From Eledone cirrhosa (Eukaryota): a stretch of DNA of 64,000 nt. How positions within the stretch are numbered: position 1 is the first letter of the stretch; every line of letters begins with the position of its first letter. The stretch is from positions 20,460,001 to 20,524,000 of the forward strand of contig OZ024765.1 in NCBI GenBank assembly GCA_964016885.1, given 5' to 3'. Under the pieces are notes generated by a model. It was not told the DNA's origin. It saw only the letters and a list, made by a program, of their open reading frames with translations, and did no database searches. Position numbers and translations under genes: made by a program. This document shows, piece after piece, positions 21,274 to 64,000 of the stretch.

Positions 21274-21324
21274 AGTTTAAGCAAAGAATCGCTGCTTTCA
21301 CCCTTAACGGTATCTTCTGAAACT
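21274..21324 (-). ncRNA. Degenerate type I hammerhead ribozyme motif in the Penelope 3' region
   Basis: AGUUU-CAGAAGA-UACCGUUAAGGGU-GAA-AGCA-loop-UGCU-U-AAACU; stems I and III pair, but the core has a U4-to-A mismatch. Confidence 0.5.
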
Positions 21325-21414
21325 AACAAAGTCAATCTGTAAACGCAGAACTGGATATTTCAAAAAACCTTGCAATCGGAGGAAGACAGGAAGACGATAC
21401 TTTGGTTCGTGGTA

Positions 21415-21680
21415 ACGTTCGCTGGCAAAGAATGGGAAAAAACGAATAATACGTCATTAATTAGGAGCGGTGAAAAACAATTACGCGCAAAGACAAAACC
21501 ACGTTTATGGTATAAAAAGAGTCGTAGACTAATGTTCTCTTAGGTGGTGCATAGAGACGTTCTCTGGCAATGAACGAAAAAACGAAGATAATAAGTCATA
21601 TGTGGAGCGTGGAGAACAATAGCACGCAAAGACAAAACCACGTAAATGGTATAGCAGAAATCGTAGACTAAAATTCTAAC
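21415..21680. repeat. Diverged ~142-bp tandem duplication in Penelope 3' region
   Basis: acgttc.ctggcaa...gcaaagacaaaaccacgt..atggtata...tcgtagactaa occurs at ~21415 and ~21557. Confidence 0.8.
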
Positions 21681-22923
21681 TAGGAGACCGAATGATTCTC
21701 CGCTACAGAGTTAAGAACAAAGTAAATAAATACAATACAGAAGTAATAGGAACAAATAAATACATACACGCAAACAGATACGTACATACACAAGCATACG
21801 CAAAACCTTACCATGGGTATACAAAACCACGCACATATAAATATGTGTGTGTATGCTTGTGTACAAATAAATAAATAATTATATAAACGTATATAAGTAA
21901 ATAAATACGTATATAACAAGCGCACACGCATACCTACATATAAATACACGAATGTTCGGAGACGTCAGTCAACTAAAACAAGAAGTACACATATACACAC
22001 ACCCACCATACGTACGAACCTGCACACTCACGCGGACGCCAAACTCCCGTATACACATAGCCAAACCCTAAATACCAGAATATGTAAAAATGATACGCTA
22101 TAACAGTCAAATATACGTACGAGAAGGTATACATACCTTCACAAAACATACGGGTAATATATACTTACCTATGCAAATACGTAAAGGAATAAACAAAACA
22201 TATACTTAGCTCCCACATCAAGACGTAAAATATCCACGTATAGATCGTGCTATCCGTTAGGGTATAACGGGGCTGTAATACAGGAAAGTTTTGTGCAATT
22301 TATGTTTACAAGCCGAAATTGCCTCAGATTTTTTGTTTAAGATGTAGTCTGTAGCGTAGAGTATTTCCAGGGCCTCAGCGGCGCAGAGGTCACATGGTCT
22401 TTTATTTCCGTTATACGATCTAGCCCTAGCTAGGATCTCCCAGTGTAACTTATATTGGGTGTGGTTGTCTTTTAGACTCCAGATATAAGCTGAAAGTGAC
22501 GTCATATTCCTTCTTAGAGGGTAACGAAAAGAATGGGTATGCATGTAAAGACGCTGCTTGAAACTATTGGCGGTTAACCCTATGTAGGCCCTACGGGACG
22601 TGGGTGTTACAACCTTACATTTGTAGACAATGTTACTAGAGAGGCATTTCCCGGATAGGGGGCAATCAGCCCGATTCCTACAATTACAGTTAGCACTACC
22701 TACAGGATTGCACGTGTTCCTACGGCTAGGTAGTTTAGCTAAATTTGAAGCTGTGATGTTATGTGCAAGGTTAGGAGTCGTAGAGTAAGAAATTTTAATA
22801 GTATTTCTATTAAAAATTTTACTATATTTATGTGTAGGGGGAAATGCTTCGTAATAAGGGAAAGAAAGATCTTAGCTAATTTAATATTTATAAAGTTACT
22901 TTTTTATTTTTGTTTTATACTAT

Positions 22924-23012
22924 AAAAAATATAATACGACACACTGCCAGTGATTGAACCCCGGACCTGGACTTCCACCGGCTCTTATACATACCACTAG
23001 GCTAAAGGAACG
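22924..23012 (-). ncRNA. Pol III-type tRNA-like module M1 (in every unit)
   Basis: A box TAGCCTAGTGG (23004-22994), B box GGTTCAATCAC (22960-22950), T6 terminator, upstream TTTATAAATA. Confidence 0.55.
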
Positions 23013-23060
23013 GTTACGGAAACTTACTGAAAATTGATATTTATAAACCTACTTTTTCAT

Positions 23061-23235
23061 TACTAGAAAAAACCGGAAGTGGAGAAAATTGAAAAACATC
23101 TTCTTTTTCTTCCTCTGATTTTTTTTTATCCAAAATTTGGATTTAAGTCAGAGACGAGTTATCGTTCGTGGCAAAAATCAGAGGAAGAAAAAGAAAAAGT
23201 TTTTCAATTTTCTCCACTTCCGGTTTTTTCTAGTA
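23061..23235. other. Long inverted repeat/hairpin (~63-bp arms) with branched loop (in every unit)
   Basis: tactagaaaaaaccggaagtggagaaaattgaaaaac..tctttttcttcctctgattttt / aaaaatcagaggaagaaaaaga..gtttttcaattttctccacttccggttttttctagta. Confidence 0.92.
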
Positions 23236-23275
23236 TAGGTAAGTAAATATTAATTTTCAATGCATTTTTGTAACC

Positions 23276-23348
23276 GTCCCTGTGGCCTAATGGTAAGCAC
23301 TAGAGACGGTGGAGATCCTGATTTAGGGTTCGATTTCCGTTAGGTTTT
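23276..23348 (+). ncRNA. Pol III-type tRNA-like module M2 (in every unit)
   Basis: A box TGGCCTAATGG (23283), B box GGTTCGATTTCC (23327), TTTT at 23345. Confidence 0.6.
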
Positions 23349-23631
23349 ATACTAATAATGCTGTACTTTGTAGTAATGTCCCATATTATATTCAACATAT
23401 TTTAATTAAAATTTTTTTTTTTATAAAAGAAAGAACAAAAAAACCTTATTGAAATTAAGAAATGAATTTTATTCAGTAAAGTTGTTTTTATTTTGTTTTC
23501 ACTTCATTAACTGCTGAATACGTCTTTTGTTTTTGTTTTTGATTCTTTCTAACCATTGTTTACTGTGAATGGTGACTGCAACGAACCTGGATTATTACCA
23601 AGTTTCACTGGATGATTGTATTATTTTGTTG

Positions 23632-23703
23632 TCAGTGGACATCTGGACATCTATCTAAATACCTGGAATAAACACAAGGTGTGTGTTTTACGTAACATTT
23701 CAT
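23632..23703 (-). CDS. Candidate micro-ORF or terminal exon A: MKCYVKHTPCVYSRYLDRCPDVH*
   Basis: Paralogous to 25511-25573; followed by AATAAA signals at ~23487 and ~23468; possible acceptor TTTATTCCAG|G at 23663. Confidence 0.35.
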   Translation of the reverse strand: MKCYVKHTPCVYSRYLDRCPDVH

Positions 23704-24037
23704 TTTAATGTCTGATGTTCCTGTATTTCACATTTAAAATGTCACCAAAAATAAACAAGACAGGGACGCTACATCAAAATAAACCACACAGACGAGGTAC
23801 GAATAATCTAAAATTAATTTTAACAAACTATAAACGATGTTTAAAGAGAGACGAACATTAAAATAGGATTTCAAACAAACACGTAAACACAAAGACAATT
23901 ACAGCCGCCATAATCTAATATCTGAAGATCAACATTTTTCACGATAGAAATAAAACTAAATATGTAAAGTTTAGTGGCCCCTGATTTACTTGCTTTTAAT
24001 TTCATTTTGATAATCTGTATTCTGTAGACATATATTT

Positions 24038-24700
24038 ATGATTTTAATGATGAAATTTCCTCTTGTCTTTAAAAGATTATTACTTATAAAAATTATAATA
24101 GTCACCTCCTCCTCTGGATTAATATGTAGCTTACCCACAGGGGTTCCTCAACTGGGCGGTTTCAACTGCTGGGTGGGCGATGAGCAGCTGAACAGAAAAT
24201 TGAGAGCCATTGGAAACTTTGGTGGCCGATATAGAATTTTGAGATTTAAGAAGGTATGCTACCCGAAAACCTATTCAAGGAATATATGCAAAGAACCTGA
24301 ATAAAAATCAGGAAGCTAATTGGGAAAATTAAACCAGGAACAAACATTTACGAAACATATTTGGTATACTTTGGAATATTTACTATACAGGTGGCTGGTG
24401 GAACATTCTTTCATGTGAATGTGGGAAATGACGCCAAAATATTTGGCAACCCTTGGCTTACACCTTACTAAATGTTCTGGAGACAAGCCTCTTAGCTATA
24501 TATCATAGTTCTTCAATCCTTCATCTTCCACAGTTGGTGAAGTATTTCGATTTGATATGACGATCGCAGAGTTAGATTTAGGACGTGGTGGCGTTCATCG
24601 GTTTCTTAGTGTTGTTACTAGAAAGGGTCGACTCTGTCTTTCACACTTCAGGTTTTTTCATGAATTAAATATCCATTTTCTTTCTGATCGGTCTAACAAT
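24038..24700 (+). pseudogene. Decayed non-LTR RT fragment, R1/Loa-like (in every unit)
   Basis: SSRLIYSIIRGSLPTGVPQLGG (long allele) resembles the RT motif 'LSSRxIxxx..IRxxVTRGxPQGG'; downstream similarity is weak and frameshifted. Confidence 0.5.
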
Positions 24701-24834
24701 GATTCGAACCTACAATGACTCCGTCTGTAATAATGTTCTCTTATTTGAAATATGCCATACCTAACTCCAGTGTCTGTGTGTGTGAAAAATATTCCAACTT
24801 AGAGCGACGTGCCCGTAAATTGTTTAGCCTGATT

Positions 24835-24845
24835 CCTATATATAG
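24835..24845 (-). promoter_or_regulatory. Candidate TATA box of cassette A
   Basis: TATATATAGG ~80 nt upstream of AG|GTATGG donor (24760), with TTGTAG acceptor at 24710. Confidence 0.35.
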
Positions 24846-25109
24846 ATAATGTGTAATATTTGAACCTTCATGGAGGGTCTTTGCCGTAATTTCCCGTAAC
24901 TCCGACTAGAAGTCATTATGTAGTTTTTTCGTCCGTTAAAAATAATGATTAAAACAATTCTATATCCACAGTTATATACACCTCTTCATCACATATTATA
25001 TTATTTCCACCAATAACTACATTATATCCTTAAATATGACACCAAGACATATAATTTGTAAATAAAAGATAAAATATTAAAACCTCAATTTTTAAATAAT
25101 TTTACCCAC

Positions 25110-25250
25110 CTTTGTGTTCTCAGTGTTTAGATTAACCATAATTTTATGATTTTGGAGCATATAACTTATAGTACCAGTCATGTACTGGGATCAATTTAAC
25201 GGATTGGTTCCTCCCCGCAAATTACTTGACTTTTGCCTAAGTAAGACATA
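25110..25250 (+). mobile_element. Decayed SINE of the 7607 family (in every unit)
   Basis: tagtaccagtcatgtactgggatcaatttaacggattggttcctccccgcaaattacttgacttttgcctaag aligns by eye with the SINE 3' part at 7487-7593. Confidence 0.65.
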
Positions 25251-25510
25251 CTCACAGAATGTATCGATGTATATGTATGAATCTATATATATATATATAT
25301 TAGTATATTTTATGTTTACAATAAAAATAGACAAACAATTTAATGATAATATGAAATGAAATTATTATTATTTATTAATAATATTTTTATTGTTTTCACT
25401 GCATTAACTTCTGAGTGTGACTTACTATTTTCTACTGTAAATGGCGGCTTAATTGGATTATTACTAAGGTTTACTGGATTGTGGTGTTTCTTTATTGTTT
25501 TATATTTCAA

Positions 25511-25573
25511 TCAGTGGACATCAGGATAGCTTTCTATATACCTGGGATAAATGTAAAGAGTACTGACTTTCAT
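25511..25573 (-). CDS. Candidate micro-ORF or terminal exon B: MKVSTLYIYPRYIESYPDVH*
   Basis: Paralogous to 23632-23703; acceptor-like TTTATCCCAG|G at 25542; AATAAA downstream at ~25386 and ~25371. Confidence 0.35.
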   Translation of the reverse strand: MKVSTLYIYPRYIESYPDVH

Positions 25574-25794
25574 CTGCAGTTCAATGGTGATGTCTTCTTA
25601 TATTTTCATTTACTTCTGCAATACTGTAGTCTTTCATTATTTTAAATATTTCTATCATGTCACTCGTTTAATATATCTCCCCGAAAGATATAGTTATTCA
25701 GAGCTTTACATTGGAATAGTGTACTACTATTTAAATATTAGTCCTTTAAATATATATTTCTATCATGTCCTACCCCCCCCCCCCCCCCCCCGTC

Positions 25795-26400
25795 TTAGAT
25801 TTATCTCCTCTAAATTTGCAATCCCTAAAGTTTAACATCTTTCTTCAGAAGACGATTTCTTAATAATTCTGGTGTTTTCTGTTTTGTTCTTTTCTGGATT
25901 CCTTCAATAGCTTCTCCGTATTTTCTGAAGTCGTCTGACCATGCCCAAAACAATATTCTAGGTCGTATCACACATATCATTCAACTAGTGTTTTAGACCT
26001 CTCGACATTTAGCTAGGCAAAGGAATGTTTTATTATTCCTATCATCTGAATTCCTTTTTTTTCTTCAACATGTTTAGCCATCTTTAAAATCATATTCATA
26101 CATATTCACAATTCCTCGTGGAGAGGTATAAGAGACATGTATAAATATAGCTGCATATTACTACAAATAACTTGAACCATATCGCGAAACATTTTGTAAA
26201 GTATCTCTGTAATTATTCTCATTTCGATTTTCTGTAGAATGTATTGACGTTTAAGATAGAGACAATTGCCCTTCTTCTAATAATCTCTTTGTCCATTGCA
26301 TGTTTAGTCTCACAAAATATTGTTAATGCAAGATTTTGCTCTAATGTAATAAATGTTACTTTTAAAAGACCGAAGTTCTCAATTTTCTTCTTTCTCTTGT
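25795..26400 (-). pseudogene. Decayed, internally deleted CR1/L2-type LINE ORF2 fragment (in every unit)
   Basis: Minus-strand pieces across frameshifts and copies: RAKSCINNIL / EWTKRLLEEG / KMAKHVEE / QMIGIIKHSFA / LEYCFGAWSDDFRKYGEAIEGIQKRTKQKTPELLRNLSSEERC*TLGIANLE. These parallel the CR1 'LEYCSSVWSP..KKDIDAIEKVQRRATK..LRNLSYEERL..LGL.SLE' region. Confidence 0.8.
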
Positions 26401-26526
26401 ATATTGATATCTAAAGGATGACAAATGTATGAATTATGTGATAGGGAGGAAAAAAGCCACGACCTTCTTCTCTCGTTACAGAAGGCTAACTGACAACGTC
26501 TTTCGCAGGAGTGACTAGTACTACTG

Positions 26527-26539
26527 CCTTTTATATACC
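26527..26539 (-). promoter_or_regulatory. Candidate TATA box of cassette B
   Basis: Canonical TATATAAAAGG ~70 nt upstream of AAG|GTCGTG donor (26463), with CCTTTAG acceptor at 26411. Confidence 0.45.
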
Positions 26540-27181
26540 GTGACAACTGGAAAGACGTGACAAATAAGGATACACTCTGCTCTCCTTATCAACATTGTCC
26601 GAGTCTGAGGACCTTTCCTCCCTGGTTAAGGAGTGAGATAAAATATTAGGGATCAATCTCTAGCAATAATTTCATTAAATCATATTTAACCAGAGACTTA
26701 TGTCGTGGTTGTTGCTATATTTCATAGTCGTGGTTTCAATGTTTAACAGGGGTTGTAGAATTAGCTTTATCTAATTATTATCAAACAAAACAGATTTATA
26801 TATTGTCGCCGTTGTACGTTAAAATCACATATATATTTATATACACACCAAGGATGGAGGGACGACGGAATTGAAAAGCATTATTGCTGAGTACATCACG
26901 GCAAGAATCTAATCTAATACACACAAACACTCTCCCGTATATATTTAATAATCAGCTATGACCATGAAGAAGGTCCCTGTAGATCATCTGGTTGTAGGAT
27001 CTAATGAACCCGAAAGAAAGTGAAAATATATTTTATGAAAGCCCCAGAAGAATAAATGTAAACATTGACCCGATTATAGTAGAAATAAGAATGAGAAAGC
27101 CATGAACGCCAGCACATCTATTTTGCTTGGAAATTGAAAGTAGGTTTATAAATATAAATGTTTTCTTATGTTCTTGTATCT

Positions 27182-27269
27182 GTTTCGTTGGCCTAATGGT
27201 AGGTGTTAGAGACTATGTAGACACTGATGTGGTGTTCAATCTCAGTCCGAATCTGTACTATATATTTTT
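27182..27269 (+). ncRNA. Pol III-type tRNA-like module M3 (in every unit)
   Basis: Upstream AGTAGGTTTATAAATAT, A box TGGCCTAATGG (27189), B-like GTGTTCAATCTC, T5 at 27265. Confidence 0.5.
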
Positions 27270-27295
27270 AAATTAAAATTTTTCTCTAGTAAAGT

Positions 27296-27390
27296 AAAAA
27301 ATGAAATTATTATCTCTAGACTTTGACTGAAATCGAAACCCAGAGCAGGTTCTCCACCGTCTCTAATACCTACCATTAGGCCACGGAGAC
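27296..27390 (-). ncRNA. Pol III-type tRNA-like module M4 (in complete units)
   Basis: A box TGGCCTAATGG (27383-27373), B-like GGTTTCGATTTC, T6 terminator, upstream AGTAACTTTATAAATAT. Confidence 0.5.
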
Positions 27391-30300
27391 AGATATAAAG
27401 ACAGTGTGAAAATTAATATTTATAAAGTTACTTTTTTAGTTTTGTTTTATACTATAAAAAATATAATACGACACACTGCCAGTGATTGAACCTTGGACCT
27501 GGACCTTCACCGGCTCTTATACTTACCACTAGGCTAAAGGGACAGTTACGGAAACTTACTGAAAATTGATATTTATAAACCTACTTTTTCATTACTAGAA
27601 AAAACCGGAAGTGGAGAAAATTGAAAAACATCTTCTTTTTCTTCCTCTGATTTTTTTTTATCCAAAATTTGGATTTAAGTCAGAGACGAGTTATCGTTCG
27701 TGGCAAAAATCAGAGGAAGAAAAAGAAAAAGTTTTTCAATTTTCTCCACTTCCGGTTTTTTCTAGTATAGGTAAGTAAATATTAATTTTCAATGCATTTT
27801 TCTAACCGTCCCTGTGGCCTAATGGTTAGCACTAGAGACGGTGGAGATCCTGATTTAGGGTTCGATGTCCGTTAGGTTTTATACTAATAACTGCGTATTT
27901 GTTGCTTTTATTAAGTAAGATTTGAACTAATAATGCTGTACTTTGTAGTAATGTCCCATATTATATTCAACATATTTTAATAAAAAATTTTTTTTTTTAT
28001 AAAAGAAAGAACAAAAAACCTTATTGAAATTAAGAAATGAATTTTATTCAGTAAAGTTGTTTTTATTTTGTTTTCACTTCATTAACTGCTGAATACGTCT
28101 TTTGTTTTTGTTTTTGATTCTTTCTAACCATTGTTTACTGTGAATGGTGACTGCAACGAACCTGGATTATTACCAAGTTTCACTGGATGATTGTATTATT
28201 TTGTTGTCAGTGGACATCTGGACATCTATCTAAATACCTGGAATAAACACAAGGTGTGTGTTTTACGTAACATTTCATTTTAATGTCTGATGTTACTGTA
28301 TTTCACATTTAAAATGTAACCAAAAATAAACAAGACATGGACGCTACATCAAAATAAACCACACAGACGAGGTACGAATAATCTAAAATTAATTTTAACA
28401 AACTATAAACGATGTTTAAAGAGAGACGAACATTAAAATAGGATTTCAAACAAACACGTAAACACAAAGACAATTACAGCCGCCATAATCTAATATCTGA
28501 AGATCAACATTTTTCACGATAGAAATAAAACTAAATATGTAAAGTTTAGTGGCCCCTAATTTACTTGCTTTTAATTTCATTTTGATAATCTGTATTCTGT
28601 TGACATATATTTATGATTTTAATGATAAAATTTCCTCATGTCTTTAAAAGATTATTACTTATAAAAATTATAATAGTCACCTCCTCCTCTGGATTAATAT
28701 GTAGCTTACCCACAGGGGTTCCTCAACTGGGCGGTTTCAACTGTTGGGTGGGCGATGAGCAGCTGAACAGAAAATTGAGGGCCATTGGAAACTTTGGTGG
28801 CCGATATAGAATTTTGAGATTTAAAAAGGTATGCTACCCGAAAACCTATTCAAGGAATATATGCAAAGAACCTGAATAAAAATCAGGAAGCTAATTGGGA
28901 AAATTAAACCAGGAACAAACATTTACGAAACATATTTGGTATACTTTGGAATATTTACTATACAAGTGGCTGGTGGAACATTCTTTCATGTGAATGTGGG
29001 AAATGACGCCAAAATATTTGGCAACCCTTGGCTTACACCTTACTAAATGTTCTGGAGACAAGCCTCTTAGCTATATATCATAGTTCTTCAATTCTTCATC
29101 TTCCACAGTTGGTGAAATATTTCGATTTGATATGACGATCGCAGAGTTAGATTTAGGACGTGGTGGCGTTCATCGGTTTCTTAGTGTTGTTACTAGAAAG
29201 GGTCGACTCTGTCTTTCACACTTCAGGTTTTTTCATGAATTAAATATCCATTTTCTTTCTGATCGGTCTAACAATGATTTGAACCTACAATGACTCCGTC
29301 TGTAATAATGTTCTCTTATTTGAAATATGCCATACCTAACTCCCGTGTCTGTGTGTGTGAAAAATATTCCAACTTAGAGCGACGTGCCCGTAAATTGTTT
29401 AGCCTGATTCCTATATATAGATAATGTGTAATATTTGAACCTTCATGGAGGGTCTTTGCCGTAATTTCCCGTAACTCCGACTAGAAGTCATTATGTAGTT
29501 TTTTCGTCCGTTAAAAATAATGATTAAAACAATTCTATATCCACAGTTATATACACCTCTTCATCACATATTATATTATTTCCACCAATAACTACATTAT
29601 ATCCTTAAATATGACACCAAGACATATAATTTGTAAATAAAAGATAAAATATTAAAACCTCAATTTTTAAATAATTTTACCCCACCTTTGTGTTCAGGTT
29701 AACCCATAATTTTATGATTTTGGAGCATATAACTTATCGTCCCAGTCATGTACTGGGATCAATTTAACGGATTGGTTCCTCCCCGCAAATTACTTGACTT
29801 TTGCCTAAGTAAGACATACTCACAGAATGTATCGATGTACATGTATGAATGTATATATATATATATATATTAGTATATTTTATGTTTACAATAAAAATAG
29901 ACAAACAATTTAATGATAATATGAAATGAAATTATTATTATTTATTAATAATATTTTTATTGTTTTCACTGCATTAACTTCTGAGTGCGACTTTGTTTTT
30001 CTTATTATCTTCTACTGTAAATGGCGGCTTAATTGGATTATTACTAAGGTTTACTGGATTGTGGTGTTTCTTTATTGTTTTATATTTCAATCAGTGGACA
30101 TCAGGATAGCTTTCTATATACCTGGGATAAATGTAAATAGTACTGACTTTCATCTGCAGTTCAATGGTGATGTCTTCTTATATTTTCATTTACTTCTGCA
30201 ATACTGTATATTGTAGTCTTTTCATTATTTTAAATATTTCTATCATGTCACTCGTTTGATATATCTCCCCGAAAGATATAGTTATTCAGAGCTTTACATT

Positions 30301-31497
30301 GGAATAGTGTACTACTATTTAAATATTAGTCCTTTAAATATATATTTCTATCATGTACACCCCCCCCCCCTCTTAGATTTATCTCCTCTAAATTTGCAAT
30401 CCCTAAAGTTTAACATCTTTCTTCAGAAGACAGATTTCTTAATGATTCTGGTGTTTTCTGTTTTGTTCTTTTCTGGATTCCTTTAATAGCTTCTCCGTAT
30501 TTTTTGAAGTCGTCTGACCATGCCCCAAAACAATATTCTAGGTCGTATCACACATATCATTCAACTAGTGTTTTAGACCTCTCGACATTTAGCTAGGCAA
30601 AGGAATGTTTTATTATTCCTATCATCTGAATTCCTTTTTTTTCTTCAACATGTTTAGCCATCTTTAAAATCATATTCATACATATTCACAATTCCTCGTG
30701 GAGGGGTATAAGAGACATGTATAAATATAGCTGCATATTACTACAAAATAACTTGAACCGTATCGCGAAACATTTTGTAAAGTATCTCTGTAATTATTCT
30801 CATTTCGATTTTCTGTAGAATGTATTGACGTTTAAGATAGAGACAATTGCCCTTCTGCTAATAATCTCTTTGTCCATTCCATGTTTAGTCTCACAAAATA
30901 TTGTTAATGTAAGATTTTGCTCTAATGTAATAAATGTTACTTTTAAAAGACCGAAGTTCTCAATTTTCTTCTTTCTCTTGTATATTGATATCTAAAGGAT
31001 GACAAATGTATGAATTATGTTATAGGGAGGGAAAAAAAGCCACGACCTTCTTCTCTCGTTACAGAAGGCTAACTGACAACGTCTTTCGCAGGAGTGACTA
31101 GTACTACTGCCTTTTATATACCGTGACAACTGGAAAGACGTGACAAATAAGGATACACTCTGCTCTCCTTATCAACATTGTCCGAGTCTGAGGACCTTTC
31201 CTCCCTGGTTAAGGAGTGAGATAAAATATTAGGGATCAATCTCTAGCAATAATTTCATTAAATCATATTTAACCAGAGACTGTTATGTCGTGGTTGTTGC
31301 TATATTTTATAGTCGTGGTTTCAATGTTTAACAGGGGTTGTAGAATTAGCTTTATCTAATTATTATCAAACAAAACAGATTTATATATTGTCGCCGTTGT
31401 ACGTTAAAATCACATATATATTTATATACACACCAAGGATGGAGGGACGACGGAATTGAAAACGATTATTGCTGAGTACATCACGGCAAGATCTAAT

Positions 31498-31528
<31 letters not shown>

Positions 31529-34500
31529 CCCGTATATATTTAATAATCAGCTATGACCATGAAGAAGGTCCCTGTAGATCATCTGGTTGTAGGATCTAAT
31601 GAACCCGAAAGAAAGTGAAAATATATTTTATGAAAGCCCCAGAAGAATAAATGTAAACATTGACCCGATTATAGTAGAAATAAGAATGAGAAAGCCATGA
31701 ACGCCAGCACATCTATTTTGCTTGGAAACTGAAAGTAGGTTTATAAATATAAATTTTTTCTTATGTTCTTGTATCTGTTTCGTTGGCCTAATGGTAGGTG
31801 TTAGAGACTATGTAGACACTGATGTGGTGTTCAATCTCAGTCCGAATCTGCACTATATATTTTTAAATTAAAATTTGTCTCTAGTAAATTAAAAAATGAA
31901 ATTATTATCTATAGACTTTGACTAAAATCGAAACCCAGAGCAGGTTCTCCACCGTCTCTAATACCTACCATTAGGCCACGGAGACAGATACAAAAACAGT
32001 GTGAAAATTAATATTTATAAAGTTACTTTTTTATTTTTGTTTTATACTATAAAAACTATAATACGACACACTGCCAGTGATCGAACCCTGGACCTGGACC
32101 TCCACCAGCTCTTATACTTACCACTAGGCTAAAGGGACGGTTACGGAAACTTACTGAAAATTGATATTTATAAACCTACTTTTTCATTACTAGAAAAAAC
32201 CGGAAGTGGAGAAAATTGAAAAACATCTTCTTTTTCTTCCTCTGATTTTTTTTTATCCAAAATTTGGATTTAAGTCAGAGACGAGTTATCGTTCGTGGCA
32301 AAAATCAGAGGAAGAAAAAGAAAAAGTTTTTTAATTTTCTCCACTTCCGGTATTTTCTAGTATAGGTAAGTAAATATTAATTTTCAATGCATTTTTCTAA
32401 CCGTCCCTGTGGCCTAATGGTAAGCACTAGAGACGGTGGAGATCCTGATTTAGGGTTCGATTTCCGTTAGGTTTTATACTAATAACTGCGTATTTGTTGC
32501 TTTTATTAAGTAAGATTTGAACTAATAATGCTGTACTTTGTAGTAATGTCCCATATTATATTCAACATATTTTAAATAAAACTTTTTTTTTTTATAAAAG
32601 AAAGAACAAAAAACCTTATTGAAATTAAGAAATGAATTTTATTCAGTAAAGTTGTTTTTATTTTGTTTTCACTTCATTAACTGCTGAATACGTCTTTTGT
32701 TTTTGTTTTTGATTCTTTCTAACCATTGTTTACTGTGAATGGTGACTGCAACGAACCTGGATTATTACCAAGTTTCACTGGATGATTGTATTATTTTGTT
32801 GTCAGTGGACATCTGGACATCTATCTAAATACCTGGAATAAACACAAGGTGTGTGTTTTACGTAACATTTCATTTTAATGTCTGATGTTCCTGTATTTCA
32901 CATTTAAAATGTAACCAAAAATAAACAAGACAGGGACGCTACATCAAAATAAACCACACAGACGAGGTACGAATAATCTAAAATTAATTTTAACAAACTA
33001 TAAACGATGTTTAAAGAGAGACGAACATTAAAATAGGATTTCAAACAAACACGTAAACACAAAGACAATTACAGCCGCCATAATCTAATATCTGAAGATC
33101 AACATTTTTCACGATAGAAATAAAACTAAATATGTAAAGTTTAGTGGCCCCTAATTTACTTGCTTTTAATTTCATTTTGATAATCTGTATTCTGTTGACA
33201 TATATTTATGATTTTAATGATAAAATTTCCTCATGTCTTTAAAAGATTATTACTTATAAAAATTATAATAGTCACCTCCTCCTCTGGATTAATATGTAGC
33301 TTACCCACAGGGGTTCCTCAACTGGGCGGTTTCAACTGTTGGGTGGGCGATGAGCAGCTGAACAGAAAATTGAGGGCCATTGGAAACTTTGGTGGCCGAT
33401 ATAGAATGTTGGGATTTAAGAAGGTATGCTACCCGAAAACCTATTCAAGGAATATATGCAAAGAACCTGAATAAAAATCAGGAAGCTAATTGGGAAAATT
33501 AAACCAGGAACAAACATTTACGAAACATATTTGGTATACTTTGGAATATTTACTATACAGGTGGCTGGTGGAACATTTTTTCATGTGAATGTGGGAAATG
33601 ACGCCAAAATATTTGGCAACCCTTGGCTTACACCTTACTAAATGTTCTGGAGACAAGCCTCTTAGCTATATATCATAGTTCTTCAATCCTTCATCTTCCA
33701 CAGTTGGTGAAGTATTTCGATTTGATATGACGATCGCAGAGTTAGATTTAGGACGTGGTGGCGTTCATGGGTTTCTTAGTGTTGTTACTAGAAAGGGTCG
33801 ACTCTGTCTTTCACACTTCAGGTTTTTTTCATGAATTAAATATCCATTTTCTTTCTGATCGGTCTAACAATGATTCGAACCTACAATGACTCCGTCTGTA
33901 ATAATGTTCTCGTATTTGAAATATGTCATACCTAACTCCCGTGTCTGTGTGTGTGAAAAATATTCCAACTTAGAGCGACGTGCCCGTAAATTGTTTAGCC
34001 TGATTCCTATATATAGATAATGTGTAATATTTGAACCTTCATGGAGGGTCTTTGCCGTAATTTCCCGTAACTCCGACTAGAAGTCATTATGTAGTTTTTT
34101 CATCCGTTAAAAATAATGATTAAAACAATTCTATATCCACAGTTATATACACCTCTTCATCACATATTATATTATTTCCACCAATAACTACATTATATCC
34201 TTAAATATGACACCAAGACATATAATTTGTAAATAAAAGATAAAATATTAAAACCTCAATTTTTAAATAATTTTACCCCACCTTTGTGTTCTCAGTGTTT
34301 AGATTAACCCATAATTTTATGATTTTGGAGCATATAACTTATAGTACCAGTCATGTACTGGGATCAATTTAACGGATTGGTTCCTCCCCGCAAATTACTT
34401 GACTTTTGCCTAAGTAAGACATACTCACAGAATGTATCGATGTACATGTATGAATGTATAGATATATATATATATTAGTAATTTTATGTTTACAATAAAA

Positions 34501-48213: not shown

Positions 48214-48262
<49 letters not shown>

Positions 48263-54200: not shown

Positions 54201-57200
54201 TCATTAAATCATATTTAACCAGAGACTGTTATGTCGTGGTTGTTGCTATATTTTATAGTCGTGGTTTCAATGTTTAACAGGGGTTGTAGAATTAGCTTTA
54301 TCTAATTATTATCAAACAAAACAGATTTATATATTGTCGCCGTTGTACGTTAAAATCACATATATATTTATATACACACCAAGGATGGAGGGACGACGGA
54401 ATTGAAAACCATTATTGCTGAGTACATCACGGCAAGATCTAATACACACACACACACACACTCTCCCGTATATATTTAATAATCAGCTATGACCATGAAG
54501 AAGGTCCCTGTAGATCACCTGGTTGTAGGATCTAATGAACCCGAAAGAACGTGAAAATATATTTCATGAAAGCCCCAGAAGAATAAATGTAAACATTGAC
54601 CCGATTATAGTAGAAATAAGAATGAGAAAGCCATGAACGCCAGCACATCTATTTTGCTTGGAAATTGAAAGTAGGTTTATAAATATAAATTTTTTCTTAT
54701 GTTCTTGTATCTGTTTCGTTGGCCTAATGGTAGGTGTTAGAGACTATGTAGACACTGATGTGGTGTTCAATCTCAGTCGGAATCTGTACTATATATTTTT
54801 AAATTTAAATTTTTCTCTAGTAAAGTAAAAAATGAAATTATTATCTCTAGACTTTGACTGAAATCGAAACCCAGAGCAGGTTCTCCACCGTCTCTAATAC
54901 CTACCATTAGGCCACGGAGGCATATATAAAAACAGTGTGAAAATTAATATTTATAAAGTTACTTTTTTATTTTTGTTTTATACTATAAAAAATATAATAC
55001 GACACACTGCCAGTGATTGAACCCCGGACGTGGACCTCCACCGGCTCTTATACTTACCACTAGGCTAAAGGGACGGTTACAGAAACTTACTGAAAATTGA
55101 TATTTATAAACCTACTTTTTCATTACCAGAAAAAACCGGAAGTGGAGAAAATTGAAAAACATCTTCTTTTTCTTCCTCTGATTTTTTTTTATCCAAAATT
55201 TGGATTTAAGTCAGAGACGAGTTATCGTTCGTGGCAAAAATCAGAGGAAGAAAAAGAAAAAGTTTTTCAATTTTCTCCACTTCCGGTTTTTTCTAGTATA
55301 GGTAAGTAAATATTAATTTTCAATGTATTTTTGTAACCGTCCCTGTGGCCTAATGGTAAGCACTAGAGACGGTGGAGATCCTGATTTAGGGATCGATTTC
55401 CGTTAGGTTTTATACTAATAACTGCGTATTTTTTGCTTTTATTAAGTAAGATTTGAACTAATAATGCTGTACGTTGTAGTAATGTCCCATATTATATTCA
55501 ACATATTTTAATTAAAATGTTTTTTTTTTTATAAAAGAAAGAACAAAAAACCTTATTGAAATTAAGAAATGAATTTTATTCAGTAAAGTTGTTTTTATTT
55601 TGTTTTCACTTCATTAACTGCTGAATACGTCTTTTGTTTTTGTTTTTGATTCTTTCTAACCATTGTTTACTGTGAATGGTGACTGCAACGAACCTGGATG
55701 ATTGTATTATTTTGTTGTCAGTGGACATCTGGACATCTACCTAAATACCTGGAATAAACACAAGGTGTGTGTTTTACGTAACATTTCATTTTAATGTCTG
55801 ATGTTCCTGTATTTCACATTTAAAATGTAACCAAAAATAAACAAGACAGGGACGCTACATCAAAATAAACCACACAGACGAGGTACGAATAATCTAAAAT
55901 TAATTTTAACAAACTATAAACGATGTTTAAAGAGAGACGAACATTAAAATAGGATTTCAAACAAACACGTAAACACAAAGACAATTACAGCCGCCATAAT
56001 CTAATATCTGAAGATCAACATTTTTCACGATAGAAATAAAACTAAATATGTAAAGTTTAGTGGCCCCTGATTTACTTGCTTTTAATTTCATTTTGATAAT
56101 CTGTATTCTGTAGACATATATTTATGATTTTAATGATGAAATTTCCTCTTGTCTTTAAAAGATTATTACTTATAAAAATTATAATAGTCACCTCCTCCTC
56201 TCGATTAATATATAGCATCATTCGAGGTAGCTTACCCACAGGGGTTCCTCAACTGGGCGGTTTCAACTGTTGGGTGGGCGATGAGCAGCTGAACAGAAAA
56301 TTGAGGGCCATTGGAAACTTTGGTGGCCGATATAGAATTTTGAGATTTAAGAAGGTATGCTACCCGAAAACCCATTCAAGGAATATAGGCAAAGTACCTG
56401 AATAAAAATCAGGAAGGTAATTGGGAAAATTAAACCAGGAACAAACATTTACGAAACATATTTGGTATACTTTGGAATATTTACTATACAGGTGGCTGGT
56501 GGAACATTTTTTCATGTGAATGTGGGAAATGACGCCAAAATATTTGGCAACCCTTGGCTTACACCTTACTAAATGTTCTGGAGACAAGCCTCTTAGCTAT
56601 ATATCATAGTTCTTCAATCCTTCATCTTCCACAGTTGGTGAAGTATTTCGATTTGATATGACGATCGCAGAGTTAGATTTAGGACGTGGTGGCGTTCATG
56701 GGTTTCTTAGTGTTGTTACTAGAAAGGGTCGACTCTGTCTTTCACACTTCAGGTTTTTTCATGAATTAAATATCCATTTTCTTTCTGATCGGTCTAACAA
56801 TGATTTGAACCTACAATGACTCCGTCTGTAATAATGTTCTCTTATTTGAAATATGCCATACCTAACTCCCGTGTCTGTGTGTGTGAAAAATATTCCAACT
56901 TCGAGCGACGTGCCCGTAAATTGTTTAGCCCGATTCCTATATATAGATAATGTGTAATATTTGAACCTTCATGGAGGGTCTTTGCCGTAATTTCCCGTAA
57001 CTCCGACTAGAAGTCATTATGTAGTTTTTTTCGTCCGTTAAAAATAATGATTAAAACAATTCTATATCCACAGTTACATACACCTCTTCATCACCTATTA
57101 TATTATTTCCACCAATAACTACATTATATCCTTAAATATGACACCAAGACATATAATTTGTAAATAAAAGATAAAATATTAAAACCTCAATTTTTAAATA

Positions 57201-60200
57201 ATTTTACCCCACCTTTGTGTTCTCAGTGTTTAGATTAACCCATAATTTTATGATTTTGGAGCATATAACATAGTACCAGTCATGTACTGGTATCAATTTA
57301 ACGGATTGGTTCCTCCCCGCAAATTACTTGACTTTTGCCTAAGTAAGACATACTCACAGAATGTATCGATGTACATGTATGAATGTATAGATATATATAT
57401 ATATTAGTATATTTTATGTTTACAATAAAAATAGACAAACAATTTAATGATAATATGAAATGAAATTATTATTATTTATTAATAATATTTTTATTGTTTT
57501 CACTGCATTAACTTCTGAGTGCGACTTTGTTTTTCTTATTATTTTCTACTGTAAATGGCGGCTTAATTGGATTATTACTAAGGTTTACTGGATTGTGGTG
57601 TTTCTTTATTGTTTTATATTTCAATCAGTGGACGTCAGCATAGCTTTCTATATACCTGGGATAAATGTAAAGAGTACTGACTTTCATCTGCAGTTCAATG
57701 GTGATGTCTTCTTATATTTTCATTTACTTCTGCAATACTGTATATTGTAGTCTTTTCATTATTTTAAATATTTCTATCATGTCACTCGTTTGATATATCT
57801 CCCCGAAAGATATAGTAACTTCGGAGCTTTACATTGGAATAGTGTACTACTATTTAAATATTAGTCCTTTAAATATATATTTCTATTATGCCCCCCCTCC
57901 CTTAGATTTATCTCCTCTAAATTTGCAATCCCTAAAGTTTAACATCTTTCTTCAGAAGACAGATTTCTTTATAATTCTGGTGTTTTCTGTTTTGTTCTTT
58001 TCTGGATTCCTTCAATAGCTTCTCCGTATTTTCTGAAGTCGTCTGACCATGCCCCAAAACAATATTCTAGGTCGTATCACACATATCATTCAACTAGTGT
58101 TTTAGACCTCTCAACATTTAGCTAGGCAAAGGAATGTTTTATTATTCTTATCATCTGAATTCCTTTTTTTTCTTCAACATGTTTAGCCATCTTTAAAATC
58201 ATATTCATACATATTCACAATTCCTCGTGGAGGGGTATAAGAGACATGTATAAATATAGCTGCATATTACTACAAAATAACTTGAACCATATCGCGAAAC
58301 ATTTTGTAAAGTATCTCTGTAATTATTCTCATTTCGATTTTCTGTAGAATGTATTGACGTTTAAGATAGAGACAATTGCCCTTCTTCTAATAATCTCTTT
58401 GTCCATTCCATGTTTAGTCTCACAAAATATTGTTAATGCAAGACTTTGCTCTAATGTAATAAATGTTACTTTTAAAAGACCGAAGTTCTCAATTTTCTTC
58501 TTTCTCTTGTATATTGATATCTAAAGGATGACAAATGTATGAATTATGTGATAGGGAGGGGAAAAAAGCCACGACCTTCTTCTCTCGTTACAGAAGGCTA
58601 ACTGACAACGTCTTTCGCAGGAGTGACTAGTACTACTGCCTTTTATATACCGTGACAACTGGAAAGACGTGACAAATAAGGATACACTCTGCTCTCCTTG
58701 TCAACATTGTCCGAGTCTGTGGACCTTTCCTCCCTGGTTAAGGAGTGAGATAAAATATTAGGGATCAATCTCTAGCAATAATTTCATTAAATCATATTTA
58801 ACCAGAGACTGTTATGTCGTGGTTGTTGCTATATTTTATAGTCGTGGTTTCAATGTTTAACAGGGGTTGTAGAATTAGCTTTATCTAATTATTATCAAAC
58901 AAAACAGATTTATATATTGTCGCCGTTGTACGTTAAAATCACATATATATTTATATACACACCAAGGATGGAGGGACGACGGAATTGAAAACCATTATTG
59001 CTGAGTACATCACGGCAAGATCTAATACACACACACACACACACTCTCCCGTATATATTTAATAATCAGCTATGACCATGAAGAAGGTCCCTGTAGATCA
59101 CCTGGTTGTAGGATCTAATGAACCCGAAAGATCGTGAAAATATATTTTATGAAAGCCCCAGAAGAATAAATGTAAACATTGATCCGATTATAGTAGAAAT
59201 AAGAATGAGAAAGCCATGAACGCCAGCACATCTATTTTGCTTGGAAATTGAAAGTAGGTTTATAAATATAAATTTTTTCTTATGTTCTTGTATCTGTTTC
59301 GTTGGCCTAATGGTAGGTGTTAGAGACTATGTAGACACTGATGTGGTGTTCAATCTCAGTCCGAATCTGTACTATATATTTTTAAATTAAAATTTTTCTC
59401 TAGTAAAGTAAAAAATGAAATTATTATCTATAGACTTTGACTGAAATCGAAACCCAGAGCAGGTTCTCCACCGTCTCTAATACCTACCATTAGGCCACGG
59501 AGGCAAATATAAAAACAGTGTGAAAATTAATATTTATAAAGTTACTTTTTTATTTTTGTTTTATACTATAAAAAATATAATACGACACACTGCCAGTGAT
59601 TGAACCCCGGACCTGGACCTCCACCGGCTCTTATACTTACCACTAGGCTAAAGGGACGGTTACAGAAATTACTGAAAATTGATATTTATAAACCTACTTT
59701 TTCATTACCAGAAAAAACCGGAAGTGGAGAAAATTGAAAAACATCTTCTTTTTCTTCCTCTGATTTTTTTTTATCCAAAATTTGGATTTAAGTCAGAGAC
59801 GAGTTATCGTTCGTGGCAAAAATCAGAGGAAGAAAAAGAAAAAGTTTTTCAATTTTCTCCACTTCCGGTTTTTTCTAGTATAGGTAAGTAAATATTAATT
59901 TTCAATGTATTTTTGTAACCGTCCCTGTGGCCTAATGGTAAGCACTAGACACGGTGGAGATCCTGATTTAGGGATCGATTTCCGTTAGGTTTTATACTAA
60001 TAACTGCGTATTTTTTGCTTTTATTAAGTAAGATTTGAACTAATAATGCTGTACGTTGTAGTAATGTCCCATATTATATTCAACATATTTTAATTAAAAT
60101 GTTTTTTTTTTATAAAAGAAAGAACAAAAAACCTTATTGAAATTAAGAAATGAATTTTATTCAGTAAAGTTGTTTTTATTTTGTTTTCACTTCATTAACT

Positions 60201-63200
60201 GCTGAATACGTCTTTTGTTTTTTGTTGTTGATTCTTTCTAACCATTGTTTACTGTGAATGGTGACTGCAACGAACGTGGATTATTACCAAGTTTCACTGG
60301 ATGATTGTATTATTTTGTTGTCAGTGGACATCTGGACATCTATCTAAATACCTGGAATAAACACAAGGTGTGTGTTTTACGTAACATTTCATTTTAATGT
60401 CTGATGTTCCTGTATTTCACATTTAAAATGTAACCAAAAATAAACAAGACAGGGACGCTACATCAAAATAAACCACACAGACGAGGTACGAATAATCTAA
60501 AATTAATTTTAACAAACTATAAACGATGTTTAAAGAGAGACGAACATTAAAATAGGATTTCAAACAAACACGTAAACACAAAGACAATTACAGCCGCCAT
60601 AATCTAATATCTGAAGATCAACATTTTTCACGATAGAAATAAAACTAAATATGTAAAGTTTAGTGGCCCCTGATTTACTTGCTTTTAATTTCATTTTGTT
60701 AATCTGTATTCTGTAGACATATATTTATGATTTTAATGATGAAATCTCCTATTGTCTTTAAAAGATTATTACTTATAAACATTATAATAGTCACCTCCTC
60801 CTCTCGATTAATATGTAGCTTACCCACAGGGGTTCCTCAACTGGGCGGTTTCAACTGTTGGGTGGGCGATGAGCAGCTGAACAGAAAATTGAGGGCCATT
60901 GGAAACTTTGGTGGCCGATATAGAATTTTGAGATTTAAGAAGGTATGCTACCCGAAAACCCATTCAAGGAATATATGCAAAGTACCTGAATAAAAATCAG
61001 GAAGGTAATTGGGAAAATTAAACCAGGAACAAACATTTACGAAACATATTTGGTATACTTTGGAATATTTACTATACAGGTGGCTGGTGGAACATTTTTT
61101 CATGTGAATGTGGGAAATGACGCCAAAATATTTGGCAACCCTTGGCTTACACCTTACTAAATGTTCTGGAGACAAGCCTCTTAGCTATATATCATAGTTC
61201 TTCAATCCTTCATCTTCCACAGTTGGTGAAGTATTTCGATTTGATATGACGATCGCAGAGTTAGATTTAGGACGTGGTGGCGTTCATGGGTTTCTTAGTG
61301 TTGTTACTAGAAAGGGTCGACTCTGTCTTTCACACTTCAGGTTTTTTCATGAATTAAATATCCATTTTCTTTCTGATCGGTCTAACAATGATTTGAACCT
61401 ACAATGACTCCGTCTGTAATAATGTTCTCTTATTTGAAATATGCCATACCTAACTCCCGTGTCTGTGTGTGTGAAAAATATTCCAACTTAGAGCGACGTG
61501 CCCGTAAATTGTTTAGCCTGATTCCTATATATAGATAATGTGTAATATTTGAACCTTCATGGAGGGTCTTTGCCGTAATTTCCCGTAACTCCGACTAGAA
61601 GTCATTATGTAGTTTTTTTCGTCCGTTAAAAATAATGATTAAAACAATTCTATATCCACAGTTACATACACCTCTTCATCACCTATTATATTATTTCCAC
61701 CAATAACTACATTATATCCTTAAATATGACACCAAGACATATAATTTGTAAATAAAAGATAAAATATTAAAACCTCAATTTTTAAATAATTTTACCCCAC
61801 CTTTGTGTTCTCAGTGTTTAGATTAACCCATAATTTTATGATTTTGGAGCATATAACTTATAGTACCAGTCATGTACTGGTATCAATTTAACGGATTGGT
61901 TCCTCCCCGCAAATTACTTGACTTTTGCCTAAGTAAGACATACTCACAGAATGTATCGATGTACATGTATGAATGTATAGATATATATATATATTAGTAT
62001 ATTTTATGTTTACAATAAAAATAGACAAACAATTTAATGATAATATGAAATGAAATTATTATTATTTATTAATAATATTTTTATTGTTTTCACTGCATTA
62101 ACTTCTGAGTGCGACTTTGTTTTTCTTATTATTTTCTACTGTAAATGGCGGCTTAATTGGATTATTACTAAGGTTTACTGGATTGTGGTGTTTCTTTATT
62201 GTTTTATATTTCAATCAGTGGACGTCAGCTTGGCTTTCTATATACCTGGGATAAATGTAAAGAGTACTGACTTTCATCTGCAGTTCAATGGTGATGTCTT
62301 CTTATATTTTCATTTACTTCTGCAATACTGTATATTGTAGTCTTTTCATTATTTTAAATATTTCTATCATGTCACTCGTTTGATATATCTCCCCGAAAGA
62401 TATAGTAACTTCGGAGCTTTACATTGGAATAGTGTACTACTATTTAAATATTAGTCCTTTAAATATATATTTCTATTATGCCCCCCCCCCCCTCCCTTAG
62501 ATTTATCTTCTCTAAATTTGCAATCCCTAAAGTTTAACATCTTTCTTCAGAAGACAGATTTCTTAATAATTCTGGTGTTTTCTGTTTTGTTCTTTTCTGG
62601 ATTCCTTCAATAGCTTCTCCGTATTTTCTGAAGTCGTCTGACCATGCCCCAAAACAATATTCTAGGTCGTATCACACATATCATTCAACTAGTGTTTTAG
62701 ACCTCTCAACATTTAGCTAGGCAAAGGAATGTTTTATTATTCTTATCATCTGAATTCCTTTTTTTTCTTCAACATGTTTAGCCATCTTTAAAATCATATT
62801 CATACATATTCACAATTCCTCGTGGAGGGGTATAAGAGACATGTATAAATATAGCTGCATATTACTACAAAATAACTTGAACCATATCGCGAAACATTTT
62901 GTAAAGTATCTCTGTAATTATTCTCATTTCGATTTTCTGTAGAATGTATTGACGTTTAAGATAGAGACAATTGCCCTTCTTCTAATAATCTCTTTGTCCA
63001 TTCCATGTTTAGTCTCACAAAATATTGTTAATGCAAGACTTTGCTCTAATGTAATAAATGTTACTTTTAAAAGACCGAAGTTCTCAATTTTCTTCTTTCT
63101 CTTGTATATTGATATCTAAAGGATGACAAATGTATGAATTATGTGATAGGGAGGGGAAAAAAGCCACGACCTTCTTCTCTCGTTACAGAAGGCTAACTGA

Positions 63201-64000
63201 CAACGTCTTTCGCAGGAGTGACTAGTACTACTGCCTTTTATATACTGTGACAACTGGAAAGACGTGACAAATAAGGATACACTCTGCTCTCCTTGTCAAC
63301 ATTGTCCGAGTCTGTGGACCTTTCCTCCCTGGTTAAGGAGTGAGATAAAATATTAGGGATCAATCTCTAGCAATAATTTCATTAAATCATATTTAACCAG
63401 AGACTGTTATGTCGTGGTTGTTGCTATATTTTATAGTCGTGGTTTCAATGTTTAACAGGGGTTGTAGAATTAGCTTTATCTAATTATTATCAAACAAAAC
63501 AGATTTATATATTGTCGCCGTTGTACGTTAAAATCACATATATATTTATATACACACCAAGGATGGAGGGACGACGGAATTGAAAACCATTATTGCCGAG
63601 TACATCACGGCAAGATCTAATACACACACACACACACACTCTCCCGTATATATTTAATAATCAGCTATGACCATGAAGAAGGTCCCTGTAGATCACCTGG
63701 TTGTAGGATCTAATGAACCCGAAAGAACGTGAAAATATATTTTATGAAAGCCCCAGAAGAATAAATGTAAACATTGATCCGATTATAGTAGAAATAAGAA
63801 TGAGAAAGCCATGAACGCCAGCACATCTATTTTGCTTGGAAATTGAAAGTAGGTTTATAAATATAAATTTTTTCTTATGTTCTTGTATCTGTTTCGTTGG
63901 CCTAATGGTAGGTGTTAGAGACTATGTAGACACTGATGTGGTGTTCAATCTCAGTCCGAATCTGTACTATATATTTTTAAATTTAAATTTTTCTCTAGTA

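What the first reader, a model, noticed from the sequence alone, without database searches (positions are those of the whole stretch)
22881..64000. Tandem 4.6 kb unit organised like a compact episome or element rather than an ordinary satellite
Seen: nine head-to-tail units, each with a branched hairpin, four tRNA-like A/B-box modules clustered around it, and two parallel minus-strand cassettes carrying different LINE remnants. No intact protein gene was found. Inference: this could be an integrated concatemer of a non-autonomous circular or hairpin-ended DNA (virus satellite-like or rolling-circle element), or a host array producing anti-transposon RNAs. I recognise no named element with this layout.
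Basis: partly seen in the sequence, partly recalled or inferred. Interest (0 to 1): 0.9.

Follow-up and report, generated by a model that had tools for sequence, protein, structure and literature searches.

The report
Macrosatellite packed with tRNA-like promoter cassettes
This is a young 4.6-kb tandem repeat, present in about 210 copies at many sites, that likely spread by ordinary array and block duplication rather than as an episome, and each copy carries four tRNA-like promoter cassettes from a genome-wide family that are likely read by RNA polymerase III into short RNAs.

Summary
The array is real: 9 units in the window, 17 in all, about 210 units in at least 18 arrays, mostly on one small chromosome. 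The hairpin and four A/B-box modules are confirmed. Only one LINE remnant (CR1-like) is confirmed; the two 'parallel cassettes' share just a ~350-bp duplicate.

The episome reading fails. Divergence grows with distance along the array. 11 of 28 array ends share flanking DNA with other arrays. The hairpin tip shows no flip/flop. A colinear 6.7-kb sister array has no hairpin. No tested parvovirus-like or Helitron locus carries the backbone.

The hairpin is likely a collapsed inverted pair of an older repeat ('CORE') that recurs beside the same modules in several other tandem units.

The modules belong to a genome-wide family with a strongly conserved TATA element at a fixed distance (440 exact matches), tRNA A-to-B spacing and T-run ends. 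Pol III transcription is inferred from three start-to-terminator solo copies and a hypervariable module; no RNA data were available.

Closest analogue: primate snaR arrays. Ten literature searches found no description of it.

The parts
22878..64000 (.). Tandem array of 4.58-kb units (9 in window; 17 in all, ending at G000:C26:20560587)
27410..32004 (.). Reference unit (unit 2); the parts below are given in this copy and recur in every unit
27458..27587 (-). Module b: upstream TATA element, A box from 27536, B box 45 nt on, T-run; most variable part of the unit (34 of 88 columns)
27593..27767 (.). Branched hairpin; likely a collapsed inverted pair of the older CORE repeat
27764..27880 (+). Module c: degenerate upstream element, A box from 27815, B box, T-run; a five-copy start-to-terminator multimer of it lies on C3
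27939..28699 (-). Segment X1: non-coding; acceptor-like CCAG/GTAT and two AATAAA on the minus strand; partly duplicated as X2
28700..29146 (.). Insert found only in the young family; origin not identified, LINE identity not confirmed
29157..29809 (.). Right arm; its first ~200 bp are an inverted copy of the DNA upstream of module d
29829..30189 (-). Segment X2, duplicate of part of X1 (66% identity)
30368..30718 (-). Decayed CR1/L2-type LINE ORF2 C-terminal remnant with several stops
31111..31120 (-). TATA-like box, kept in some form in 12 of 12 aligned paralog rows; possible Pol II promoter, untested
31732..31865 (+). Module d: upstream TATA element, A box from 31784, B box, T-run; converges on module a
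31893..32029 (-). Module a: converges on d; the d/a pair is homologous (60-66%) to a dispersed ~900-bp element

Best explanation
The 4.6-kb unit is a young, non-coding macrosatellite patched together from older repeats of this genome, likely multiplied inside arrays by unequal crossing-over and likely carried to new sites as duplicated blocks with their flanks, and its four tRNA-like cassettes are likely RNA polymerase III genes for short (about 75-105 nt) RNAs. Shown: patchwork origin, many arrays, shared flanks, distance-dependent divergence, conserved promoter anatomy. Inferred: the hairpin arose when DNA between an inverted CORE pair was deleted; the cassettes are transcribed in the germ line. 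Proposed, untested: the palindrome plus dense Pol III complexes stall replication forks, which would make the block prone to breakage and duplication and so help it spread.
For: Divergence rises from 0.74% between neighbours to 1.6% at 15 units apart; the window array is not one clade, and within-array divergence (1.0%) is like that to most C26 arrays (0.7-1.35%). 11 of 28 array ends share junction-adjacent flank with another array; shared flanks run 4.5 to >11 kb and stop at different points. Flanks hold paralogs at 60-80% identity. A colinear 6.7-kb array on C15 has six modules and no hairpin. Hairpin series: unpaired CORE in a 7.1-kb array, then forms with a 44-bp, partial or no central segment; inverted CORE pairs 300-900 bp apart sit 1-1.7 kb from a module on C18, C20, C23 and C26. 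Modules: upstream 25-mer has 440 exact matches, control 0. The motif precedes 46 of 59 distinct modules found by their body (29 of 5000 random windows), 32 of 46 at exactly -51. TATA falls 30 nt before a purine start, as for U6 here. A-to-B spacing is 45 nt (tRNA value recalled). 3 of 20 dispersed hits run from the predicted start to the first T-run without upstream element or partner. Module b varies at 34 of 88 columns versus ~16% elsewhere, p 6e-7, as expected of transcription-associated mutagenesis (PMC6130373).
Against: No RNA evidence was obtained. 13 of the 59 modules lack the motif, and many were fetched because of the motif, which inflates 46 of 59. B boxes of the array modules lack the last consensus C. 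Module d is not hypervariable (9 of 90) and the C>T strand bias is not significant (p 0.21). The modules share no consensus RNA fold. 17 of 28 ends are not shown to share flanks (one reads N) and fall at scattered unit positions, which insertion of concatemers would also give. How the dispersed module pair moved is unresolved.
Confidence: 0.62

Rival explanations
1. Same macrosatellite history, but the modules are dead promoter relics of an old dispersed element that merely hitchhike; nothing is transcribed or selected.
For: No conserved RNA fold; degenerate B boxes; the module pair is part of a dispersed ~900-bp repeat at 72-89% identity; foldbacks are common here (9 in 190 kb of repeat-rich loci, though 0 in 63 kb of L1 loci).
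Against: The upstream element and its spacing are kept across modules whose bodies are 60-75% alike; start-to-terminator solo copies exist; module b is hypervariable.
Confidence: 0.17
2. The unit is a non-autonomous rolling-circle (Helitron-like) element laid down as concatemers by a Helitron enzyme supplied in trans.
For: The genome has many Helitrons (150 scored of 3704 candidates); CORE-module blocks on C18, C20, C23 and C26 include a decayed Helitron piece; many array ends have unique flanks; Helitron-linked satellites are known in oyster (PMC8268682, abstract).
Against: Array ends do not fall at one unit position; no fixed terminus in shared flanks; the Helitron piece is cut inside the helicase and followed by shared non-Helitron DNA; 0 of 10 stretches around 5 Helitron loci carry CORE or a module.
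Confidence: 0.12
3. A host array that makes anti-transposon RNAs (piRNA or siRNA) from captured LINE pieces and the hairpin.
For: TATA-like box, acceptor-like site and AATAAA are kept in paralogs; the hairpin could give double-stranded RNA and varies less than the rest (14 of 175 columns, p 0.002); contigs of one run of unknown kind cover most of the unit unspliced.
Against: Only one LINE remnant; it is sense to the putative transcript and at most 41% identical in protein to any hit, and decayed further in paralogs, so it could hardly guide silencing; donor site not conserved.
Confidence: 0.05
4. An integrated concatemer of a hairpin-ended or circular satellite DNA that depends on a parvovirus-like helper.
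For: Size and a Y-tipped hairpin between inverted arms resemble a parvovirus junction (recalled); the genome has 29 Parvo_NS1 matches; arrays are of 2-30 units.
Against: Tip has one orientation in 48 of 51 copies, and the 3 others are older variants (two loci) with a larger rearrangement; arm changes are one-sided and arm mismatches are fixed; the sister array lacks the hairpin; 0 of 10 stretches around NS1-like matches carry CORE, a module or unit sequence; 0 exact matches in viral contigs for two motifs; near-identical sequence in at least two other species labels.
Confidence: 0.04

Closest known systems
Primate snaR gene arrays (PMC3045588; passages and the section on duplication read)
   Same: Small Pol III-type genes with A/B boxes, derived from a dispersed repeat, held in a core sequence with variable captured flanks, tandemly arrayed and spread by segmental duplication.
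   Different: snaR derives from Alu/7SL, has ~30 genes, one per duplicon, and shown expression. Here the cassettes are tRNA-like, four per unit in convergent and divergent pairs, several hundred in all, with a fixed upstream TATA element; expression is not shown.
Macrosatellites such as RNU2, D4Z4, DXZ4 (PMC5687341, PMC4132748; search listing only)
   Same: Multi-kb units, tens of copies per array, turnover within arrays.
   Different: At least 18 separate arrays plus sister families of 6.7, 7.1 and 8.2 kb sharing parts; no protein gene or known RNA family.
SINE-derived satellites of squamates (PMC10702118; abstract and Discussion read)
   Same: A dispersed Pol III-promoter repeat gives rise to multi-locus tandem arrays, some subtelomeric.
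   Different: Those units are portions of a SINE; here the unit is a 4.6-kb composite and keeps an upstream element a SINE copy would lose.
Helenus/Ajax/Cassandra TRIMs with Pol III promoters (PMC10886601; passages read)
   Same: Non-autonomous repeats holding a tRNA-like promoter that does not fold as a tRNA; tandem arrays occur.
   Different: No LTR pair seen; the modules are inverted pairs with their own terminators.
Parvovirus/AAV hairpin termini and concatemers (recalled, no paper read)
   Same: Branched hairpin between inverted arms once per ~4.6-kb unit.
   Different: No flip/flop, no arm correction, no Rep or capsid remnant, hairpin absent from a sister array.

Membership tests
Macrosatellite spread by segmental duplication | Multi-kb head-to-tail units, >95% alike | tested here: met
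Macrosatellite spread by segmental duplication | Local turnover: neighbours more alike than distant units | tested here: met
   0.74% to 1.6% with distance
Macrosatellite spread by segmental duplication | Arrays share flanks with no fixed end | tested here: met
   11 of 28 ends; 4.5 to >11 kb
Type 2 Pol III gene with upstream TATA | A box, B box at tRNA spacing, TATA near -30, T-run | tested here: met
   B boxes of array modules lack the last C
Type 2 Pol III gene with upstream TATA | Transcription by Pol III | not testable with these tools
   only indirect signs
tRNA gene | Cloverleaf with anticodon arm | tested here: not met
   ARAGORN 0; Rfam none; no consensus fold
SINE | Dispersed copies begin at the transcript start, with body and tail, unrelated upstream DNA | tested here: not met
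   12 of 20 dispersed hits are inverted pairs, 9 of them with the upstream motif by the script; only 3 of 20 look like retrocopies
snaR family | Descent from Alu/7SL | tested here: not met
   no Rfam SRP or snaR-type match; works like snaR arrays, is not a member
Helitron tandem array | Fixed termini at array ends | tested here: not met
   ends at many unit positions
Helitron tandem array | Autonomous partner sharing the ends | tested here: inconclusive
   0 of 5 Helitron loci (10 stretches) of 150 scored
Parvovirus-like rolling-hairpin replicon | Flip and flop tip isomers, corrected arms | tested here: not met
Parvovirus-like rolling-hairpin replicon | Rep/NS1 in the unit or a helper with the same hairpin | tested here: not met
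   (10 stretches covering 11 of 29 matches)
Parvovirus-like rolling-hairpin replicon | Extrachromosomal monomer | not testable with these tools
   needs bench work or raw long reads
hAT non-autonomous element | Terminal inverted repeats and 8-bp target duplication around the unit | tested here: not met
   no such terminus in the window; one dispersed module pair (L133) does lie inside one
piRNA cluster / hairpin-siRNA locus | Small RNAs antisense to young transposons | not testable with these tools
   no small-RNA data; remnant is old and sense

The most novel reading that the evidence does not exclude
An undescribed self-amplifying backbone (inverted CORE pair plus TATA/A/B-box cassettes) acts as a core duplicon that has seeded several independent macrosatellite families of 4.6-34 kb, giving this animal well over a thousand lineage-specific Pol III genes whose short tRNA-like RNAs are made in the germ line and kept by selection on their promoter.
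Probability: 0.22. Interest if true: 0.8.

Novelty: new variant of a known kind. Interest (0 to 1): 0.5.

Why it matters
If the cassettes are transcribed, this genome holds one of the larger lineage-specific Pol III gene families, about 840 copies in this macrosatellite alone (211 units x 4). Standard annotation misses it, since neither ARAGORN nor Rfam calls the modules. It would be an invertebrate parallel to snaR and a natural test of whether palindromes plus Pol III cassettes drive duplication. The predicted RNA ends are precise, so one small-RNA or ChIP experiment settles it. If silent, it is still a well-resolved case of how a macrosatellite is assembled from dispersed repeats, and of modest interest.

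Tried and rejected
Expression: no RNA holder was listed for the unit; this says nothing either way. Four runs laid as contigs gave no joint at the predicted splice sites; contig holes over the hairpin prove nothing.

Spliced small-protein genes: the donor GT is lost in 4 of 12 rows and there is no shared start codon. The ~80-aa frames of the 7.1-kb unit were found in 2 of 16 collected copies, several of them spurious.

L1/Tx1 identity of the cassette-1 insert, suggested by eye: rejected, scores no better than reversed sequence. No hit against masked loci either. A language-model look-alike search for this insert was not obtained, so its origin stays open.

One search used the wrong frame for the CR1 piece; it served only as a map of arrays. 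Pairwise BLASTP to a local CR1-like frame was weak (E 0.005).

Larger autonomous relative: the 7.1-kb unit has no Pfam hit; the 15-21-kb units hold ordinary LINE pieces. An apparent fixed end in the CORE-Helitron block was only an insertion in the reference copy.

RNA structure: no consensus fold for 40 modules in an ungapped alignment; my alignment had four rows mis-oriented and was not used. Rfam matches below gathering score are generic hairpin hits. Earlier scan notes: nothing relevant. No supplementary files were opened; Repbase-type libraries were not available, so the dispersed parts may already have names there.
Full report
OBSERVATION. The window lies at G000:C26:20460001-20524000 of a 3.0-Gb genome. 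Self-comparison shows head-to-tail units from 22878 with a period near 4.58 kb. The nine window units differ by 0.45-1.9%. The array continues to 17 units, 77.7 kb. The hairpin has 63-nt arms at 97% complementarity and a two-branch tip, z = -17.3. Four A/B-box modules lie around it, in the order d+, a-, b-, hairpin, c+. No frame exceeds 101 aa and six frames gave no Pfam hit under E 0.05. One remnant is a CR1/L2-type ORF2 C-terminus: 159 phmmer hits, and 10 of 10 scanned hits carry RVT_1. The second remnant was not confirmed.

DISTRIBUTION. A 25-mer of the hairpin tip has 231 exact matches (100 listed). A 27-mer from the unit body has 211 matches at up to 3 mismatches (100 listed). Together these place at least 18 arrays of 2-30 units: 13 on C26, 2 on C20, and one each on C18, C22 and C1777, in both orientations. 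Listings were cut, so more may exist. Runs under two other species labels hold 57% and 30% of the sampled words; the second was laid and gave pieces with few differences.

HOW THE ARRAYS GREW. In a 1.06-kb segment, 16 window-array units differ by 0.74% when adjacent and 1.6% when 15 apart. The array is not one clade, and its mean internal divergence (1.0%) is like that to most other C26 arrays (0.7-1.35%; two are at 2.4-2.7%) (trees poorly resolved). Of 28 array ends compared, 8 share a downstream junction or flank and 3 an upstream flank; two more abut the same short satellite, one reads N, and the rest show no shared junction flank. Shared flanks run 4.5 to over 11 kb and end at different places. 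They differ by 0.3-2.9% on C26 and 4-5% against C20, mostly more than the units do, which suggests later homogenisation of units. The flanks hold older paralogs at 60-80% identity. This fits local turnover plus block duplication. It does not fit repeated insertion of a free replicon, although the unique ends alone would allow that.

THE HAIRPIN. Its core also occurs, unpaired, in a 7.1-kb array on C22 and in dispersed relatives; older 4.6-kb variants keep all or part of a 44-bp central segment that the young units lack. An older version, which I call CORE, has 321 exact matches of one degenerate 28-mer, clustered on C18, C20 and C23 among the 100 listed. It often forms inverted pairs 300-900 bp apart with a module 1-1.7 kb away, repeated in units of about 8 kb (C23), 10 kb (C18) and 12-34 kb (C20). 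The hairpin is therefore best read as a collapsed CORE pair (inferred). The tip has one orientation in 48 of 51 copies in hand; the 3 others are older variants from two loci with a larger rearrangement. Arm substitutions are one-sided. A 6.7-kb array on C15, colinear with the unit at 63-79%, has six modules and no hairpin. The hairpin does vary less than the rest, 14 of 175 columns, p 0.002; arm-to-arm conversion or selection could explain that.

THE MODULES. An upstream 25-mer has 440 exact matches, control 0, clustered on most chromosomes listed. In 20 stretches fetched for it, nearly every near-match is followed by an A/B-box body. Among 59 distinct modules found by their body, 46 have the motif, 32 at exactly 51 nt before the A box; random windows gave 29 of 5000 (the sample is biased toward motif-bearing loci). 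The TATA lies 30 nt before a purine start, as at two U6 genes here. The B box starts 45 nt after the A box. A body pattern has 499 matches, many dispersed singly. Of 20 fetched, 12 are a convergent pair inside a ~900-bp element, 5 are fragments, and 3 run from the predicted start to the first T-run (L112 scored as a pair by eye). One of the three is a five-copy multimer of module c on C3. One dispersed pair sits inside a hAT-like element with an 8-bp target duplication. In 85 alignments from other arrays, module b varies at 34 of 88 columns, a at 23 of 91, c at 19 of 84 and d at 9 of 90, against about 16% elsewhere; the window array shows the same excess (48 of 475 versus 230 of 4118, p 0.0002). 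Active tRNA genes mutate faster (PMC6130373, abstract and opening read), so this is indirect support for transcription; conversion between modules is an alternative. Forty modules gave no consensus fold: what is kept is the promoter, not an RNA shape.

RIVALS TESTED. Ten stretches around parvovirus-NS1-like matches and ten around five Helitron loci hold no CORE, module or unit sequence beyond simple repeats. Two motifs have no match in viral contigs. A decayed Helitron piece lies in the CORE-module blocks but is cut inside the helicase, with no Helitron end. A TATA-like box, an acceptor-like site and AATAAA are kept in paralogs, so a Pol II non-coding transcript is possible, but the donor and start codon are not conserved.

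COMPARISON. The closest working analogue is snaR: Pol III small-RNA genes from a dispersed repeat, amplified as duplicons in tandem arrays (PMC3045588, passages and one section). SINE-derived satellites (PMC10702118) and Pol III-promoter TRIMs (PMC10886601) are looser parallels. Octopus has tRNA-derived SINEs (PMC4824008, passages), which I could not compare by sequence. Ten full-text searches listed no description of this repeat or module family; the library lacks most subscription journals and repeat databases.

VERDICT. A real, apparently undescribed macrosatellite built on a recurring CORE plus Pol III-type backbone. Episome and anti-transposon readings are unlikely. The open and testable point is whether the cassettes are a large expressed small-RNA family. 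Interest 0.5; new variant of a known kind.

Noticed in passing
window 9651-13429: 84-bp tandem repeat, 44 copies, with 39 C2H2 motifs in one run; another run of 16 lies ~16 kb upstream of it, outside the window.
   Followed up: partly
window 13729-21257: A 7.5-kb (TA)n tract directly left of the array's flank.
   Followed up: no
window 2685-6219: 81-bp tandem repeat with 24-bp sub-duplications.
   Followed up: no
window 21259-22877: Dispersed repeat that begins at the (TA)n tract, with a 139-bp internal repeat; a 93-95% copy on C3 (L140) is folded back on itself.
   Followed up: partly
L123 (G000:C3:300676616-300677860): Five tandem 106-bp copies of module c running from the predicted start to the terminator, far from any array; candidate retrocopy.
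   Followed up: yes
L133 3951-5230 (G000:C5, near 14.108 Mb): Module pair inside a hAT-like composite with terminal repeats and an 8-bp target duplication.
   Followed up: partly
L016-L020 (G000:C22:27.03-27.16 Mb): 17-copy array of a 7.1-kb unit with an unpaired CORE and duplicated small TATA cassettes; no protein family.
   Followed up: partly
L089-L090 (G000:C15, near 18.25 Mb): 6.7-kb sister macrosatellite with six modules and no hairpin.
   Followed up: yes
L082-L097 (ends of C5, C6, C10, C13; C1, C3, C4 clusters): Module clusters in 15-21-kb repeats near chromosome ends, and head-to-head/tail-to-tail module arrays with ~600-bp spacing.
   Followed up: partly
G000:C19:31.78-31.84 Mb: Tandem array of about 30 U6 genes at ~1.8-kb period.
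   Followed up: no
G000:C20:3.5-5.2 Mb, C27:13-15.5 Mb: Near-equal-scoring Helitron domain copies spaced about 70-200 kb apart, suggesting very large tandem duplications.
   Followed up: no
L204-L213 (C12:9.07-9.09 Mb and others): 29 parvovirus NS1-like matches; the C12 cluster has several open frames of 320-560 codons. Unrelated to this repeat.
   Followed up: partly
L012 1334-1443: One unit of the window's array carries a 110-bp copy of unit positions 445-554 inserted at position 1105.
   Followed up: no
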